A stretch of 64,000 nt of DNA. Origin: Octopus vulgaris. Lineage: Eukaryota. A program made the position numbers. The stretch covers positions 7,998,001-8,062,000 of the forward strand of contig OX597821.1 of NCBI GenBank assembly GCA_951406725.2. Direction: 5' to 3'. This document shows positions 3,001 through 35,600 of this stretch, piece after piece (the first letter of the stretch is position 1; every line of letters begins with the position of its first letter).

Positions 3001-6000
3001 CCTTGTCTCTCTTTGTTTGTCCCCTCTATGTTTAGCTCCCTGTGGGCAATAAAGAAATAAATATGTAAAAAAAGGCACAAAAATACTGGTAGGTGCGCAT
3101 ACATGAATACTGACACACATAAAACTTTCGTTAGCTATCTTAATACAGTTTCTGAGCTCCTTTAATATGTTAAGTTCCTTTCGTTTTGTACCATAGATCA
3201 CCAACCAAGTTAGCCAAGAATATCACCAAGGAAAAAGCAAAAAGTTATAAAACAAAAGTTATAGGCGCAGGAGTGGCTGTGTGGTAAGTAGCTTGCTTAC
3301 CAACCACCTGGTTCCGGGTTCAGTCCCACTGTGTGGCAATTTGGGCAAGTGTCTTCTACTATAGCCTCGGGCCGACCAAACCCTTGTGAGTGGATTTGGT
3401 AGATGGAAACTGAAAGAAGCCTGTCGTATATATGTATGTGTGTGTATATGTTTGTGTGTCTGTGTTTGTCCCCCTAGCATTGCTTGACAACCGATTCTGG
3501 TGTGTTTACGTCCCCGTAACTTAGCGGTTCGGCAAAAGAGACCGATAGAATAAGTACTGGGCTTACAAAGAATAAGTCCCGGGGTCGATTTGCTCGACTA
3601 AAAAAAGGCGGTGCTCCAGCATGGCCGCAGTCAAATGACTGAAACAAGTAAAAGAGTAAAGAATAAAGATACACAACTCTTTCAGTTCAAGGGAGATAAT
3701 AGACTAATATATCTAGCTCAATCTGAAGCTGTTTGCCAAAGTGAAATAATTCTAGAGTCCTGCCAGATGGGCTGGAATGTATCCAGGACCCCAAAGCAGT
3801 GATTTTAGACCGAGAAGTGTGGCAGGGGAACTTTGTGGCTGCGACCGGGTTGGAACCCGGTTATAAAGAAAAAAAAAAAGACAGAAGAAAAAAGATAGTA
3901 AATTTTTAAAATGTAATAAAAAATATGTAGTTGATTCCTTTGTGCAGGCAAAAATATGCAATATATAGAAAAAAAGTTACAACGGGCGTTAGGGCTAGGT
4001 TTTAGGGTTAAGGTTTAGGATAGAGTTAGATCTAGAATTAGGGTTTGGGGGATTAATATTAAGTTTTAGGGTTAAGATTTAATACTAGAGCAAGAGTTAA
4101 GGGCTAGATTCTACAGATGATAGAATTTGAGGTTAGAATTAGGTTTAGAGTTTAGTGGTTAGAATTAAAGTTAGGGTTTGAATTAGCGTAGGAGTTTAAG
4201 GTCACTGTGGGTAAGGGTTAGAGTTACGATTATGTCGATGAAATTTAATGTAATAACTATTTCGTTGCCATTTGCGACCTCATGAATTATTAAAAAAAAT
4301 TTTCTATCTCATGGTTCTTCTTTCTTCTTTTCCTTGTTCCTCTTTTTCCATTTTTTCTCACAGTTTTGGATTTATATTTTTCATGTGGTTTTACATTATA
4401 TATGTATGATACATACGTGTTATATTCTAATAAAATGCTGTAAATGCTTTTGTATAATAAATTAGGAATTTTGTGAAAATGGGGTTTAACTACCAGTTCA
4501 TTATGTTGAATGTTTTAAACATCAAACGTTACACTATTTGTTTTTCCAAATGGCCGCTTGTTATTTTTCAAAGCGCCCCAACCGTGACTATCCCATCCAT
4601 TTTATTATAATTATTTTGTTTTCGTGAAAGCAGCTAGCCGACAGAACCATTATTGCACCGGACAAAATGCTTAGTAGGATTTCTTCCGGCTTTTTACACC
4701 CTGAGTTCAATTGACGCGGAGGTCGACTTTGTCTTTCAACCTTTCGGATCAATAAAAGAAATACCAGTTGAACACTGCGTTCGATGTAATTGCCTTTTCA
4801 ACATGAAAATTTCTGGCCTTGGGGGCTTACGTTTCCTACTAACTTTCTTTTCTTTTTTCTTTCTTTTTTTTTTGTAAATAAGGATAGATATATTTTTGCA
4901 TACGCAGATGAATCAATTTCTATTGGCGATCTCGGAGTCTGAGCTCAGAAAATACAGCTCAAACTCAGAGAAATTCAATGGAAATTATAATTCAACAGAC
5001 ACAAAGCCTGAAATTTTGGGAGTGGAAGCAGTCGTTTAATTCAACTCTAGTGCTCAACTGACTTATTTCATCGACCCCAAGAGCAAATGAAAAGTCGACC
5101 TCGACGGAATTTGAATAGAAATGCAGGTAAGCGCAGGAGTGGCTGTGTGGTAAATAGCCTGTCTACCAACCACATGGTTCCGGGTTCAGTTCCACTGCGT
5201 GGCACCTTGGGCAAGTGTCTTCTACTATAGCCTCGGGCCGACCAAAGCCTTGTGAGTGGATTTGGTAGACGGAAACTGAAAGAAGCCTGTCGTATATATG
5301 TATATGTGTGTATATGTTTGTGTGTCTGTGTTTGTCCCCCCTAGCATTGCTTGACAACCGATGCTGGTGTGTTTACGTCCCCGTCACTTAGCGGTTCGGC
5401 AAAAAAGAGACCGATAGAATAAGTACTGGGCTTACAAAGAATAAGTCCCGGGGTAGAGTTGCTCGATTAAAGGCGGTGCTCCAGCATGGCTGCAGTCAAA
5501 TGACTGAAACAAGTAAAAGAGTAAAAGAGAGTAAGCATTTTGTCCAGCGCACTAACGATTCTGCCAGATCACCCCTTATTTATAAGAATTACAATAGAGC
5601 AAGAGAGGCCGGGAAATCAGTCGCTAAGTTGCAAGTCGAATCCAAGAGCAAACAACTCCTCGCTGTCTTGGCAACGACGGATCTCGCGAGATTCCCGCCA
5701 CATCGTCTCCATTGTTTTTTGGGGTTGGTCGAAAGTTTCCCTCATTTCGGGGCAGATTTTTATGTTTTATTTCATGTTTTGTGGGGAAACAGTAAAAAGA
5801 CCAACTTTTATGGGACGTTCTCAAAGATAATTCATCTACTGAGTAAATTTTGAATAGCAGGTAAGATTAAAAAACATTTTTTAATTAAAGCCTAGCTCTG
5901 TGTTTTATTGTTTGTGTAGTTTGATGGAAAGAGGAAAGAAAACAAGTTAAGGGGTCCCCGCTGCCAATTAGTGTGCTTAATTAGCGTCTAATTAAGAAGC

Positions 6001-32698: not shown

Positions 32699-35600
32699 AT
32701 GGGCTTCTTTCAGTTTCCGTCTACAAAATCCACTCACAAGGCTAGGTTTTGGTTGGCCCAAGGCTATAGTAGAAGACCCCCAAGGTCCCACCCTTTGAGA
32801 CTGAACCAGGAACCATGTGGTTGGGAAGTATGCTCCTTACCACACAGCCACGCCTACACCTGGTTGTTTTGTTTGATTAAAAAACCTTGCAAGGTGGTGC
32901 CCCAGCATGGCCACATTCAAAATGACTGAACGAGTAAATGATGAAAGATAAAACATATCTTGGTCATTGGAAGCGGAGTATCACTCCTGGTACTGTTGTA
33001 GGGTGGGTGTGTCTCTTAGACTGGTGATAGTAAGAGGAAAGGTAGTAAGAAACCACAATTTTTAGGTTTATTCTCAGACTTCCAAGATCTTGTGTGAAAG
33101 TTTACTACAGCATGGCCTTTGATAAATGTACCTGAAGGAACCATGTGGTGTTGAGACATGTGATGGTATAGTCAAATCAGTTGAAGAATTAGAAGAAAAG
33201 TTCCAAGATGAAAGCAAAGTCTAGATTGATTGCATTTAAGAAAATTTCTTTAAATAATTGTAATTTTTTTTTTGTCTGGTTTTTCTTTCCAGGAAATTAA
33301 ATGCGAGTGATCGTGAGAAAAAACTTCAAGAAATGATGTCTGACGCTAAATGGCGCTCTGATGTCCGAGCACATAATGTCAAAGTTTATGAGAAAGAATG
33401 TGAGCTTGATGAGAAGAATACTCACAAAGGAAGCAGTTCGGATTTTCTAAAGTAAGCCGTTTTTTCATTATTTGTCAAGTTGCCTTATTTGGCAGTTCTA
33501 TTATTTATAGAGATGCTTTATCTGCTGGTTCTATTAATTATTTGTAGAATTGCCTCATTTGTTATTTCTGTTAATTATTTACTGAGTTACCTTGTTTGGC
33601 AGTTCTATAGTTATGTGTAGTGCAGCCTTAGCTTCTATCCCAATCACTTTTTCCATTGAGCAATAAAAATGTAATGAATTCTGTTTTTGCAGGCACCTTG
33701 ACCTTTAAAGTATATTCTTGTATGTGGGAACGGTATTGCTTAGACTGCTAACAACACTAGTTTGTTGCTAACCATATTTTGCTCCTTTAGGTGCTAACTT
33801 TACTAACTTGTTCAGTTGTTAATCCCATCAAAACTCTATCATATCTTCAGTTACTAAGTTTCCCTGTAAAGAAAATTATTTCATTGATTGCTAATGTTAC
33901 TTCTCTGGTTGCTAATCCTATTAACACTGCTTATCTTTTCAGTTGCTAACCTGCTTACTTGTTCAGTTGATAATCCTATTAAAAACCCAACTGTTTCTTT
34001 AGTTGCTAACCTGGATACATATTTAGTTTATAATCCCAATATAAGCCCTACTTTTTCAGTTGTTAATCTGGTTACTCACTTAGTTAATAATCTCATCAAA
34101 GACCCTACTAGTTCTTCAGTTGCTAACCTTCTCTGTTAACAACATTGTCTTGTTTAGTTGCTAAAGTTTATTACATCTACTGTTGTTAATCACATTAACA
34201 ATGTCTCTGTCTCTTTTACAGCCCCATGATGTCACAACATGCCTCTCAGAGTAGTGTTGAAGAGAGAATCCGGAGAAACAAATACAACATCCAGAGAACT
34301 AAATCACAGTTAAATGCTAACTTTACAAAGAGATAAAAAAAACAAAAAAACTTGTAAATAAAATACATGCAGTCATCATCCTTAACCTAGTTACAATTTT
34401 TTGTGTCCAGAGTTCAAATCCTGCTAAAGTGTTTTGTCTTTCATATCTCCTGTGGTCAATAAAATGAAATGCCAGCTAAATACTACTGTAGATAGGTAAA
34501 TAAAATTGACTCTTATACCTCCATCCTCCCCTCCATCCCCCTCCTCCCCTCCACCCCTCCTCCCCTCCTCCCCTCCTCCCCTCCTCCCCTCCTCCCCTCC
34601 TCCCCTCCATCCCCCTCCTCCCCTCCATCCCCCTCCTCCTAAACTTGCTGGCCTTTAAAGCGTTATTATAAATGAAAGAAAGGCAGAGAGACATCAGAAT
34701 TGGTTAAGGGTTGGATTTTATGCCTTCAGTAATTTAGCTGCATATCTTTGCATTCTGAGTTCAAAATCCAACTGTAGATGACTTTCCCTTTCAAATTTTT
34801 AATTGATGAAAAAAAAAATCACTTAAGTACTGGAAGGTTGGTCTTAGGCCAACAGGTCTTGGGGTCTGATGCTATGCCATAAAGTTAAACCCTTTATGGA
34901 TGGATCATCCCATAAACTGGCCTTCACCAGTAATATATATAGACTGCTCTGCCTCTTAGAGTGTGCTTCTCTGGATTTATGTTTTTCCTAGATGTGTAAT
35001 GTCAGTGTGCACACACGACAGAGTGTAAGCGCCCTGAGAGAAATGCTGGACATATTGGAAGCATCGGATGTGGCATGCAAGAGAGACGTTTGTGCTGGGA
35101 TGGTCATGTACTACAGATGGATGAGGAGAGATGTGTGAAGAAGTGCCACTCCCAAACAGTTGAAGGAATCCGGGGTAGAGGTAGACCCAGGAAGACATGG
35201 GATGAGGTGGTCAAGCATGACCTTTGAACGTTGGGCCTCACAGACGCAATGACGAAAGACGGAGATCTCTGGAGATATGCTGTGACTGCGAAGACCCGAC
35301 AAATAACGTGAGTTCATAGTTGTTTCCTGCACCAGTTTCACATAGCAGCCCCAGCCCATCCAAAGCACCTTAGATCACAGAACAGCCTGTTGTGCTTACC
35401 TTGGATTGTAGGGCGACCTGCTGTGCTTGAGGAGACCTATTGAGTCAAGTACATCAACATCAAAATAAATATCAAATGGAAATTGTAGTTGTGATACCTG
35501 TGCCGATGGCACATAAGAAGCACTATCCAAATGCCGGTGGCATGTAAAAAGCACCAACTAATTGTGGCCGCTGCCAGCCTCCCCTGGCACGTAAAAAGCA

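What the first reader, a model, noticed from the sequence alone, without database searches (positions are those of the whole stretch)
5600..34362. One promoter, two products: a domesticated mariner HTH gene nested in the first intron of a CWC25-like transcription unit
Seen: the ORF at 10567-11046 is uninterrupted, whereas the other mariner/Tc1 transposase fragments in the window carry stops or frameshifts. It has a strong acceptor 11 nt before its ATG and a stop overlapping AATAAA. It has no recognisable TIRs and no DDE domain, and ends in a microsatellite-derived poly-Asn tail. The clearest upstream promoter-plus-donor is at 5600-5860. Known: transposase DNA-binding domains are repeatedly exapted by exon trapping (PGBD3 in ERCC6/CSB; SETMAR). 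Inference: exon 1 splices either to 10556 (short mRNA for a stand-alone HTH protein) or onward to 18281/20895 (CWC25-like mRNA). This would couple a transposon-derived DNA-binding factor and a splicing factor through alternative terminal-exon choice.
Basis: partly seen in the sequence, partly recalled or inferred. Interest (0 to 1): 0.8.

Follow-up and report, generated by a model that had tools for sequence, protein, structure and literature searches.

The report
Transposase-derived DNA-binding gene upstream of octopus CWC25
An intact small gene that keeps only the DNA-binding head of an old Tc1/mariner transposase sits about 10 kb upstream of the coding exons of an octopus CWC25 splicing-factor gene; it looks like a conserved, domesticated gene, but whether the two genes share a promoter remains untested.

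Summary
The ORF at 10567-11046 is intact (159 aa). It begins 11 nt after a strong splice acceptor and ends on an AATAAA. It has no catalytic domain and no terminal inverted repeats, and its tail is an (AAT)n-derived poly-Asn run.

The ORF encodes the two-part helix-turn-helix DNA-binding domain of a Tc1/mariner transposase. A profile of the family matches the SETMAR and Mos1 DNA-binding domains. Full-length relatives have about DD41D spacing, which is Visitor-like.

Ten other proteins that also lack a catalytic part form one well-supported clade with it (99/98). Two are named: Argonauta hians and Octopus bimaculoides. Their domains are 69-86% identical to this ORF while the tails are unrelated. 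That pattern supports domestication.

The CWC25 homologue is real. It has eight coding exons at 20912-34336, 91-100% identical to the O. sinensis protein.

The shared-promoter idea rests only on sequence signals: the window's only TCTCGCGAGA element, a top-ranked donor at 5861, and acceptor-led exons at 10556, 18281 and 20895. No transcript data could be consulted. The Argonauta relative is named as an isoform of an eIF1b-like gene, not of CWC25.

Verdict: a new member of a known kind (compare Drosophila CG4570), with the coupling to CWC25 unproven.

The parts
5124..5596 (.). High-copy SINE-like repeat directly upstream of the putative promoter. It is not part of the gene and marks the left edge of the unique sequence.
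   Evidence: Self-blastn gives up to 29 overlapping matches elsewhere in the window. Its 'QMTETSKR' frame recurs in ORFs at about 2.2, 3.6, 11.5, 13.7, 25.0 and 32.4 kb.
5682..5691 (.). Palindromic TCTCGCGAGA ('CGCG element'), a candidate core promoter element.
   Evidence: It is the only occurrence in 64 kb. It is described as a promoter element of housekeeping and ribosomal-protein genes in vertebrates (PMC6192621 abstract and PMC2920758 title, both seen only in the listing). Its role in cephalopods is inferred.
5597..5860 (+). Putative promoter plus non-coding first exon. The TSS is not defined. The exon ends at the donor CAG|GTAAGA, whose G is at 5861.
   Evidence: The stretch is unique in the window. 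CpG o/e is 1.05 for 5601-5900 against 0.44 for the window. The donor ranks at the 99.87th percentile; in 1-10556 only one other donor scores as high, and it lies inside the SINE at 5127. A 22-codon upstream ORF at 5761-5829 is read directly.
10428..10484 (.). (AAT)n microsatellite upstream of the polypyrimidine tract and acceptor.
   Evidence: TRF reports period 3 and 19 copies.
10556..11075 (+). HTH exon, from the acceptor ttttttttcag|AG to the presumed cleavage site. The 3' end is inferred from AATAAA, then CA about 12 nt later, then a T/GT-rich stretch.
   Evidence: The sequence is shown. The acceptor ranks at the 98.8th percentile. The exon is unique in the window.
10567..11046 (+). CDS of the 159-aa stand-alone HTH protein (P0001).
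   Evidence: Supported, homologues, and a gap-free alignment with relatives over residues 1-118.
10567..10920 (+). Two-part DNA-binding domain (residues 1-118). HTH1 comprises helices 9-25, 29-40 and 47-60. A linker follows, with RCGRP at residues 68-72. HTH2 comprises helices 75-88, 94-101 and 105-128.
   Evidence: The AlphaFold2 model has mean pLDDT 83.1, with blocks 11-60 and 81-110 at 96-98. The family profile matches the SETMAR DBD 7s03 (E 2.2e-8) and Mos1 3hos (E 1.5e-5). Foldseek's top hits are 7s03, Mos1 and the PAX6 paired domain.
10980..11028 (+). (AAT)n array that encodes the poly-Asn/Asp tail.
   Evidence: TRF reports period 3 and 16 copies. The tail is modelled as disordered, with pLDDT below 50 at residues 134-146.
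11045..11050 (+). AATAAA overlapping the TAA stop.
   Evidence: It is the only AATAAA or ATTAAA in 10900-12000. The window has 66 AATAAA in all.
12142..12147 (+). Strong unused-looking donor AAG|GTAAGT downstream of the ORF. It allows a rival model in which the HTH exon is internal.
   Evidence: PWM score 11.84.
18281..18393 (+). Candidate non-coding 5'-UTR exon of the CWC25 homologue, bounded by acceptor ctcttgcag| and donor CAG|GTAAGT.
   Evidence: The sequence is shown. The donor ranks at the 99.97th percentile and the acceptor at the 94.8th. It is unique in the window. No transcript evidence exists.
20895..20958 (+). First coding exon of the CWC25 homologue, with the ATG at 20912 (MDSDEKKKIVEVMKA...).
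   Evidence: tblastn with O. sinensis CWC25 P0168; boundaries.
23311..23429 (+). CWC25 coding exon 2, which holds the LDWMY core of the CWC25 domain.
   Evidence: Pfam CWC25 PF12542 scores 27.4 bits, E 6.2e-6, on this one exon. It is 98% identical to P0168. Boundaries.
24694..24787 (+). CWC25 coding exon 3.
27446..27515 (+). CWC25 coding exon 4.
29242..29466 (+). CWC25 coding exon 5.
   Evidence: The start was moved by one base after reading the AG in the output.
31099..31352 (+). CWC25 coding exon 6.
33293..33451 (+). CWC25 coding exon 7.
34222..34336 (+). CWC25 last coding exon, with the TAA stop at 34334-34336.
   Evidence: The eight CDS pieces sum to 1083 nt, or 360 codons plus the stop.

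Best explanation
The ORF at 10567-11046 is a domesticated remnant of a Visitor-like (about DD41D) Tc1/mariner transposase. Only the N-terminal two-part helix-turn-helix DNA-binding domain (residues 1 to about 118) and a trace of the linker survive. A free-evolving, microsatellite-derived, disordered tail follows. The catalytic domain and the terminal inverted repeats are gone.

It belongs to a clade of HTH-only proteins whose named members are cephalopod (Argonauta hians, Octopus bimaculoides).

Because a strong acceptor lies 11 nt before the ATG and a poly(A) signal overlaps the stop, I infer that it is expressed as the last exon of a short spliced mRNA with a non-coding first exon. The best candidate for that first exon is the unique, CpG-rich stretch carrying TCTCGCGAGA that ends at the donor at 5861.

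The protein most likely binds DNA sequence-specifically. It could act as a regulator, or as a repressor that occupies the inverted repeats of related transposons.

The CWC25 homologue (coding exons 20912-34336) may start at the same promoter, running through 18281-18393 and 20895. In that case the HTH exon would be an alternative terminal exon in its first intron. I put that particular step at about 0.35.

Shown: the ORF, the domain identity, the loss of the catalytic part and TIRs, the clade, and the CWC25 exon map. Inferred: expression, splicing partners, DNA targets, and the shared promoter.
For: Domain identity:
- The 67-sequence family profile matches the SETMAR DNA-binding domain 7s03 (E 2.2e-8) and Mos1 transposase 3hos/4u7b (E 1.5e-5 and 3.3e-5).
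- The AlphaFold2 model has six helices in two three-helix bundles, with 97 residues at pLDDT 90 or above.
- Foldseek's best hits are 7s03 (probability 1.00), Mos1 and the PAX6 paired domain, with Tc3 at rank 29.
- The atlas's nearest clusters are DUF4817, SETMAR and HTH_48 types, at 0.90-0.94.

Transposon parentage:
- Full-length relatives P0169 (351 aa) and P0170 (356 aa, 139 member sequences, DDE_3) were reported at 57% and 51% identity.
- In tblastn they align from residue 1 to about 131-139 of the ORF.
- Catalytic spacing by motif is DD41D (P0169, P0108), DD42D (P0170) and DD40D (P0043).

Loss of mobility parts: there is no DDE remnant downstream, there are no TIRs, and the HTH domain occurs once in the 64 kb (4 of 165 tblastn rows fall outside the ORF, none of them on an HTH domain).

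Conservation:
- 17 proteins matched at E <= 0.001 among 41 candidates.
- Ten of these 17, together with the window's ORF, all start M[CS]DQSPY and all lack a catalytic part. These 11 form one side of a branch with 99/98 support in a 44-row tree.
- Domain identity to the window ORF is 102/118 for Argonauta and 69-81% for the other nine. Aligned tail positions are 0-8 identical out of at most 37.
- The Argonauta protein shares the start, the low-complexity tail and the terminal VQ.

Transcript signals: the acceptor, donor, CpG, TCTCGCGAGA and AATAAA results are. No CpG-rich window lies near 18.2 or 20.9 kb. Both the 18281 and 20895 exons open with acceptors, so the CWC25 mRNA needs a first exon further upstream.
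Against: - No expression or junction data were available, so splicing and promoter use are inferred from motifs alone. The splice scores come from my own rough matrix with recalled frequencies.
- The exact ORF, or any relative closer than 80% identity, was absent from the protein collection although the neighbouring O. sinensis CWC25 is present. Annotators of the closest genome may not have called it.
- The O. bimaculoides relative is only 69% identical over the domain. That is low for an ortholog within one genus, so the family has paralogues. Copy number per genome is unknown.
- The Argonauta relative is named as an isoform of an eIF1b-like gene, not of CWC25.
- CpG o/e of the ORF is 0.93, like the young SINEs. 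This could mean youth rather than constraint.
- The Pfam match is below the curated cut-off.
- Foldseek TM-scores are low (0.32/0.41) and no match reached E <= 0.001.
- The candidate first exon carries an upstream ORF.
Confidence: 0.6

Rival explanations
1. The HTH exon belongs to a different transcription unit from CWC25. One option is that it has the 5.6-5.86 kb promoter to itself and CWC25 starts near 18.2 kb. The other is that it is an alternative exon of a gene lying outside the window, such as an eIF1b-like gene, as the Argonauta record's name suggests.
For: The closest named relative is called 'eukaryotic translation initiation factor 1b-like isoform X1'. By NCBI naming practice (recalled), that means it shares a gene model with an eIF1b-like transcript. 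Nothing in the window links 5861 to 18281 except compatible splice signals. The window starts only 10.5 kb upstream of the exon.
Against: No eIF1/SUI1 motif occurs on either strand of the 64 kb, even allowing mismatches. The stretch from 1 to 5600 is mostly SINE copies. The 18281 exon begins with an acceptor, and nothing CpG-rich lies upstream of it.
Confidence: 0.3
2. It is a decaying or non-autonomous transposon copy, not a host gene. In this view it is a truncated element whose frame is open by luck or recent origin, possibly one of many HTH-only copies, and any protein would serve the transposon family (for example as a truncated-transposase inhibitor).
For: The family has plainly mobile relatives: P0170 stands for 139 member sequences. 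The snail Bradybaena has several copies, one of them (P0022) with a remnant of the catalytic C-terminus in its tail. The ORF's CpG o/e is 0.93. The O. bimaculoides member is a paralogue-like 69% over the domain. The ORF is missing from the protein collection for the closest genome.
Against: There are no TIRs, no catalytic remnant, and only a single copy in 64 kb. All 11 cephalopod-type proteins lack the catalytic part and share derived residues (WMH, RCGRP, LREWEKK) absent from the catalytic-domain-bearing relatives. The domain is conserved while the tail is not. With random codons a 159-codon frame stays open about (61/64)^159, roughly 5e-4, of the time (my arithmetic).
Confidence: 0.12
3. 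The HTH exon is an internal 5' exon of the CWC25 mRNA (10556 to the donor at 12142, then on to 18281). The HTH ORF would then be a long upstream reading frame of a two-cistron-like transcript rather than a terminal exon.
For: A strong donor AAG|GTAAGT lies at 12142 (score 11.84).
Against: AATAAA sits on the stop codon and is followed by CA and a T-rich stretch. Such an exon would be about 1.6 kb, which is unusually long for an internal exon (general knowledge). The stretch 11511-11943 inside it is a repeat.
Confidence: 0.05

Closest known systems
Drosophila CG4570, a domesticated Tc1/mariner gene that keeps only the DNA-binding domain (PMC13548663; abstract and section 7 read)
   Same: Only the N-terminal HTH domain of a Tc1/mariner transposase of about 340 aa is kept, in a short stand-alone protein (225 aa there, 159 aa here). 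In both cases the orthologues form a clade apart from transposases.
   Different: For CG4570 the paper shows dN/dS of 0.124, microsynteny and expression. None of these could be tested here. The lineage differs (insects against cephalopods), so this is presumably an independent event. Whether the unnamed HTH-only clade P0029/P0036/P0042 in my tree is CG4570 was not checked.
SETMAR (Hsmar1 transposase captured by a SET gene) and its DNA-binding domain, PDB 7s03
   Same: It is the best sequence-profile hit (E 2.2e-8) and the best fold hit. It is a mariner-type two-part HTH that, in SETMAR, still binds the transposon's inverted repeats (title of PDB entry 7s03).
   Different: SETMAR is an in-frame fusion to host exons and keeps the catalytic domain (recalled). 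Here there are no host residues and no catalytic domain.
PGBD3-CSB (piggyBac transposase used as an alternative 3' terminal exon in an ERCC6 intron). This is recalled; no paper was read.
   Same: The proposed mechanism is the same: a transposon-derived exon with its own acceptor and poly(A) site sits inside a host intron, giving two products from one promoter.
   Different: That case makes a fusion protein with host coding exons. Here the upstream exon would be non-coding, and its use is unproven.
Host-transposase fusion genes formed by transposase capture (bioRxiv 10.1101/2020.05.07.082677; abstract start seen in the listing)
   Same: Transposons supply exons and splice sites, and DNA-binding domains are the usual captured part.
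   Different: No fusion occurs here. The product is the transposase domain alone.
Visitor/DD41D family of Tc1/mariner transposons (name seen in the abstract listing of bioRxiv 10.1101/2022.10.13.512200)
   Same: The full-length relatives of the ORF have 40-42 residues between the second and third catalytic Asp by motif spacing.
   Different: The window's gene has no catalytic domain at all. I did not place the relatives in a reference phylogeny of named families, so the assignment rests on spacing alone.

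Membership tests
Tc1/mariner transposase N-terminal DNA-binding domain | Sequence homology to the N-termini of transposases that carry a DDE/D domain. | tested here: met
   P0169 and P0170 (351 and 356 aa) align from residue 1 to about 131-139 at 51% identity (57% and 51%). 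The profile matches Mos1 and SETMAR.
Tc1/mariner transposase N-terminal DNA-binding domain | Two three-helix HTH subdomains joined by a linker with a GRPR-like motif. The motif name is recalled. | tested here: met
   The model has helices 9-25, 29-40, 47-60 and 75-88, 94-101, 105-128. RCGRP lies at residues 68-72. G61, R71, P90, S93 and R95 are at least 90% conserved in 67 sequences.
Tc1/mariner transposase N-terminal DNA-binding domain | Fold match to solved transposase DNA-binding domains. | tested here: inconclusive
   The top Foldseek hits are 7s03, Mos1 and PAX6, but E is 1.5e-3 at best and TM is 0.32/0.41. The two subdomains are flexibly linked, which lowers global scores (my inference).
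Autonomous Tc1/mariner (Visitor-like) transposon | A DDE/D catalytic domain. | tested here: not met
   Pfam finds none. tblastn of 12 relatives with all or part of the catalytic domain finds only E > 1 noise in 11046-14000.
Autonomous Tc1/mariner (Visitor-like) transposon | Terminal inverted repeats flanking the ORF. | tested here: not met
   Only microsatellite-type or short AT-rich inverted matches occur in 9000-12600.
Autonomous Tc1/mariner (Visitor-like) transposon | Multiple dispersed copies. | not testable with these tools
   There is one copy in this 64 kb. No cephalopod genome was on hand.
Pfam DUF4817 (PF16087) | A score at or above the curated gathering cut-off. | tested here: not met
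   The score is 18.3 bits against 22.6. More distant relatives do pass: P0045, P0143 and P0161.
Domesticated transposase-derived host gene (criteria as used in PMC13548663, section 7) | Orthologues form a clade apart from transposases. | tested here: met
   The 11 HTH-only rows form one side of a branch with 99/98 support in a tree of 44 rows.
Domesticated transposase-derived host gene (criteria as used in PMC13548663, section 7) | Purifying selection (dN/dS below 1). | not testable with these tools
   No DNA of relatives was available. As a proxy only: domain identity is 69-86% while tails share 0-8 identical positions of at most 37 aligned.
Domesticated transposase-derived host gene (criteria as used in PMC13548663, section 7) | Conserved microsynteny. 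| not testable with these tools
   No related genome was available. The Argonauta record's name hints at a different neighbour.
Domesticated transposase-derived host gene (criteria as used in PMC13548663, section 7) | Expression. | not testable with these tools
   No transcript data were available. Gene models exist in two named species, but their evidence was not visible.
Host-transposase fusion (SETMAR or PGBD3-CSB type) | An in-frame fusion of host coding exons to the transposase domain. | tested here: not met
   The ORF has its own ATG 11 nt after the acceptor. Both named relatives and most unnamed ones start at the same Met.
CWC25 splicing-factor family (the neighbouring gene) | The CWC25 domain (PF12542). 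| tested here: met
   The exon at 23311-23429 alone scores 27.4 bits, E 6.2e-6. O. sinensis CWC25 P0168 carries PF12542 as a precomputed annotation and maps to eight exons at 91-100% identity.
CWC25 splicing-factor family (the neighbouring gene) | The N-terminal Cir_N-type segment (SWHP motif, recalled from the human protein). | tested here: not met
   No such motif appears in any frame upstream of 23311 on the + strand. P0168 itself starts MDSDEKKK. The motif was recalled, so this test is weak.

The most novel reading that the evidence does not exclude
Cephalopods carry a clade of transposase-head genes that are expressed by riding on housekeeping promoters. Each member would be a self-contained cassette (acceptor, ATG, HTH ORF, poly(A) site) sitting in the first intron of a housekeeping gene: CWC25 here, an eIF1b-like gene in Argonauta. 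It would be produced by alternative terminal-exon choice from the host's non-coding first exon. The protein would act as an inverted-repeat-binding repressor of the parental Visitor-like transposons, or as a new transcription factor whose dose tracks host-gene transcription and splicing.
Probability: 0.2. Interest if true: 0.7.

Novelty: new member of a known kind. Interest (0 to 1): 0.45.

Why it matters
Domesticated DNA-binding heads of Tc1/mariner transposases are known but rare; a screen of 43 drosophilids found five Tc1/mariner-derived genes (PMC13548663 abstract).

A survey of transposon-derived transcription factors that included Octopus lists six families and not this one. I read passages. 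[quoted passage not shown] Four further text searches found no paper on such a cephalopod gene.

If the clade is confirmed as a host gene family, it adds a lineage-specific DNA-binding factor to a group known for expanded regulatory gene sets. If the shared first exon is real, it is a clean natural case of two unrelated proteins produced from one promoter by terminal-exon choice. That could be tested with a handful of long reads.

Tried and rejected
I used stop-to-stop ORF lists instead.
  - On the + strand, 150 of 155 ORFs of at least 45 aa in 5-36 kb were scanned. The other five were left out of that call; the four of at least 50 aa were covered with the rest of the + strand, and 4912-5058 (49 aa) was never scanned.
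  - On the - strand, 147 of 159 ORFs of at least 62 aa were scanned. Twelve satellite or microsatellite frames were dropped.
  - Exons shorter than these limits were not scanned.
- A search for an eIF1/SUI1 gene in the window, using recalled motifs both exact and fuzzy, found nothing.
- A search for a Cir_N-type start of CWC25 found nothing.
- Rfam at gathering thresholds and a tRNA scan of the whole window found nothing.
- The cluster look-up for accessions and taxa of the relatives was switched off.
- A possible in-frame donor inside the ORF (AAA|GTAATG at 10897, after codon 110) scores only at the 86th percentile. Read by eye, it would not join the CWC25 frame at 20895. I dropped the idea of an HTH-CWC25 fusion.
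- In the first tree, the long-branch row P0161 fell inside the cephalopod-type group. I left it out of the second tree. P0018, P0019 and hits beyond P0044, except P0108, P0169 and P0170, were also not included.
- The bacterial and archaeal genome collection was not scanned because it cannot hold cephalopod DNA.
- No complex prediction was run.

Full report
**What is in the sequence**

The frame at 10567-11046 (+) is open for 159 codons. Stop to stop it spans 187 codons. That makes it the second-longest of 87 frames of at least 70 aa in 5-35 kb; the longest is a microsatellite artefact.

It starts 11 nt after ttttttttcag|AG, so the exon begins at 10556. Its TAA overlaps the only AATAAA or ATTAAA in 10900-12000; the window has 66 AATAAA, about one per kb. 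CA and a T-rich stretch follow the AATAAA.

(AAT)n arrays lie at 10428-10484 and at 10980-11028. The second one encodes the poly-Asn tail. The window has no N.

**What the ORF encodes**

- Pfam gives only a sub-threshold DUF4817 HTH match: 18.3 bits against a cut-off of 22.6.
- A full scan of 1.84 billion representative proteins with residues 1-127 found 692 proteins at E <= 0.001, 96 at E <= 1e-10 and 3 at E <= 1e-30.
- A 67-sequence alignment (A1) used as a profile matches the SETMAR DNA-binding domain 7s03 (E 2.2e-8) and Mos1 transposase (E 1.5e-5 and 3.3e-5). These are 3 of the 4 PDB sequences found at E <= 1.
- The AlphaFold2 model (mean pLDDT 83.1, pTM 0.53) has two three-helix bundles, at residues 9-60 and 75-128. 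They are joined by a linker that holds RCGRP. The tail is disordered.
- Foldseek against the PDB puts 7s03 first (E 1.5e-3, probability 1.00, TM 0.32/0.41). Mos1 chains follow, then PAX6 and PAX5 paired domains, with the Tc3 domain at rank 29. No match reached E <= 0.001.

I read the ORF as a mariner/Tc1-type two-part DNA-binding domain. The global fold scores are weak, probably because the two halves are flexibly linked.

**Parent transposon**

- A search restricted to longer proteins found 2 hits among 432 candidates. They are P0169 (351 aa) and P0170 (356 aa, 139 member sequences, DDE_3).
- Both align with the ORF from residue 1 to about 131-139. The homology therefore runs through both HTH units into the linker and stops where the catalytic domain should begin.
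- By motif spacing these relatives are DD41D (P0169, P0108), DD42D (P0170) and DD40D (P0043).
- DD41D is the signature of the Visitor family, according to an abstract I saw only in a search listing (bioRxiv 10.1101/2022.10.13.512200). I did not test this label phylogenetically.
- No catalytic remnant lies in 11046-14000, and no terminal inverted repeats lie in 9000-12600.
- The HTH domain occurs once in the window. Of 165 tblastn rows, 4 fall outside the ORF, and none of them is an HTH.
- Two other transposase pieces are present, both broken or partial. One is a different Tc1/mariner C-terminus at 24226-24519 (+), with two stops. The other is a mariner Transposase_1 piece at 44359-44664 (-).

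**Is it domesticated?**

- The near-length search gave 17 proteins at E <= 0.001 among 41 candidates.
- Ten of them start M[CS]DQSPY, run through the domain without gaps, and then end in unrelated tails of 0-130 residues with no relic of the family's own catalytic domain. P0007's tail does contain a stretch like an unrelated mariner C-terminus, which I take for a gene-model fusion.
- Two of the ten are named: Argonauta hians (158 aa) and Octopus bimaculoides LOC106876238 (148 aa). The other eight have no name or taxon, and the cluster look-up that could have told me was switched off.
- Identity to the window ORF over residues 1-118 is 102/118 for Argonauta and 69-81% for the other nine. It is 54-57% for the mobile relatives. 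In the tails, 0-8 of at most 37 aligned positions are identical.
- In a 44-row maximum-likelihood tree, the 11 HTH-only rows are one side of a branch with 99/98 support. The window ORF pairs with Argonauta at 100/97. P0161, P0018, P0019 and most hits beyond P0044 were left out of that tree.
- The Argonauta protein also shares the low-complexity tail and the final VQ.

This pattern has four parts: one origin, a conserved domain, free tails, and loss of every mobility feature. It is what a domesticated gene looks like, and it fits the criteria used for Drosophila CG4570 (PMC13548663, abstract and section 7).

Three things are missing: dN/dS, synteny and expression. No cephalopod DNA or RNA collection was available.

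Four points count against domestication:
- The O. bimaculoides member is too divergent (69% over the domain) for a within-genus ortholog, so paralogues exist.
- The ORF's CpG o/e is 0.93 against 0.44 for the window.
- The snail relatives look like internally deleted transposon copies.
- No relative closer than 80% identity was returned from the protein collection, although the neighbouring O. sinensis CWC25 is present.

**The CWC25 gene**

One exon (23311-23429) hits Pfam CWC25. It is 98% identical to the O. sinensis 'pre-mRNA-splicing factor CWC25 homolog' P0168, 358 aa.

tblastn of P0168 against the window, with boundaries read from the sequence, gives eight coding exons:

| Exon | Coordinates |
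|---|---|
| 1 | 20912-20958 (the exon itself starts at 20895) |
| 2 | 23311-23429 |
| 3 | 24694-24787 |
| 4 | 27446-27515 |
| 5 | 29242-29466 |
| 6 | 31099-31352 |
| 7 | 33293-33451 |
| 8 | 34222-34336 |

These exons are 91-100% identical to P0168. Their lengths sum to 360 codons plus the stop.

I worked exon by exon. The joined step was left out, so the full-length protein of this window was not compared as a whole.

The window therefore comes from an Octopus very close to O. sinensis.

**One promoter, two products?**

For the idea:
- 5597-5900 is unique sequence directly after a SINE present in up to 29 copies.
- It holds the window's only TCTCGCGAGA. This is a promoter element of vertebrate housekeeping genes according to PMC6192621 (abstract) and PMC2920758 (title), both seen only in the listing.
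- It has CpG o/e of 1.05.
- It ends in CAG|GTAAGA, one of only two donors at that score in 1-10556. The other lies inside the SINE.
- The exons at 10556, 18281 and 20895 all open with good acceptors, at the 98.8th, 94.8th and 97.6th percentiles. The exon 18281-18393 closes with a perfect donor.
- None of the 40 most CpG-dense 300-bp windows lies near 18.2 or 20.9 kb.

So the HTH exon and the CWC25 mRNA both need an upstream first exon, and this is the best candidate in view.

Against the idea:
- These are motif-level signals scored with my own rough matrices.
- The candidate first exon has a 22-codon upstream ORF.
- A strong donor at 12142 allows an internal-exon model.
- The one external clue, the Argonauta record's name 'eukaryotic translation initiation factor 1b-like isoform X1', links the closest relative to another host gene. 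No eIF1/SUI1 motif exists anywhere in the window.

The protein carries no host residues. Even if the promoter is shared, this is not a SETMAR-type or PGBD3-CSB-type fusion.

I rate the shared promoter at about 0.35.

**Comparison with what is known, and novelty**

The kind is known: a stand-alone DNA-binding head domesticated from a Tc1/mariner transposase, as in Drosophila CG4570.

A cephalopod clade of this kind was not found in print by my searches:
- 'DUF4817': 5 papers, none relevant by title or abstract start.
- octopus + domesticated + transposase + mariner: 3 papers.
- DD41D + mollus*: 8 papers, 7 of them listed.
- cephalopod + mariner + domesticat* + transposase: 6 papers.

The metazoan survey PMC10027918 lists six transposon-derived factor families in Octopus and not this one. 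[quoted passage not shown] The mollusc paper 10.1101/656579 concerns a DD36E group that it reports absent from cephalopods (passages).

I file this as a new member of a known kind. The transcript architecture is an open and cheaply testable question.

Noticed in passing
window 50110-53780: A 3.7-kb satellite with a 42-bp unit in about 90 copies (89% matches). It is AT-rich with strong G-over-C skew: GC is 0.23-0.24 and GC skew about 0.55.
   Followed up: partly
window 5124-5596, and many other places such as 8489-8945, 15634-16074, 17570-18020 and 31391-32957: A SINE-like repeat of about 450 bp, with up to 29-32 overlapping self-matches in the 64 kb. Copies keep a high CpG content, so CpG maps of this window mostly mark SINEs. 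ARAGORN finds no tRNA-like gene in the copies, and Rfam finds nothing.
   Followed up: partly
window 20912-20958 and protein P0168: The octopus CWC25 homologue, both as annotated in O. sinensis and as mapped here, starts MDSDEKKK and goes straight into the LDWMY core. The N-terminal SWHP-type segment that I recall from the human protein was not found in the window. Either the segment is lost in this lineage or a 5' coding exon is unannotated.
   Followed up: partly
protein P0003 (Argonauta hians): The closest relative of the HTH protein is named 'eukaryotic translation initiation factor 1b-like isoform X1'. This suggests that its gene model shares exons with an eIF1b-like gene. The window holds no eIF1-like coding sequence.
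   Followed up: partly
proteins P0029, P0032, P0033, P0036, P0037, P0038, P0042: A second clade of HTH-only relatives (SH-aLRT 97). They have long acidic or low-complexity N-terminal extensions and no catalytic part. This is probably an independent domestication in another animal group. The taxa are unknown, and a link to Drosophila CG4570 was not tested.
   Followed up: no
window 24226-24519 (+), in CWC25 intron 2: The C-terminal piece of a different Tc1/mariner transposase, 25-31% identical to the Visitor-like relatives, with two in-frame stops.
   Followed up: partly
window 44359-44664 (-) and 48688-49020 (-): A mariner Transposase_1 fragment (53.7 bits) and a Pif1 helicase 2B-domain fragment (48.6 bits). 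The second is probably a Helitron remnant.
   Followed up: no
window 23477-23860 (+) and 35000-35227 (+): Open frames ending in motifs such as ...DREVWRSMV... and ...GRGRPRKTWDEVV.... They look to me like C-terminal pieces of retrotransposon proteins (recalled). Pfam gave no hit apart from a sub-threshold AT-hook.
   Followed up: no
window 10601-10900: The HTH ORF has CpG o/e 0.93 and GC 0.50, in a window averaging o/e 0.44 with flanks at GC of about 0.36. This fits either constraint plus germline hypomethylation, or youth. It is unexplained.
   Followed up: no
window 12142: A near-perfect donor AAG|GTAAGT lies 1.1 kb downstream of the HTH stop codon, with no obvious exon attached.
   Followed up: no
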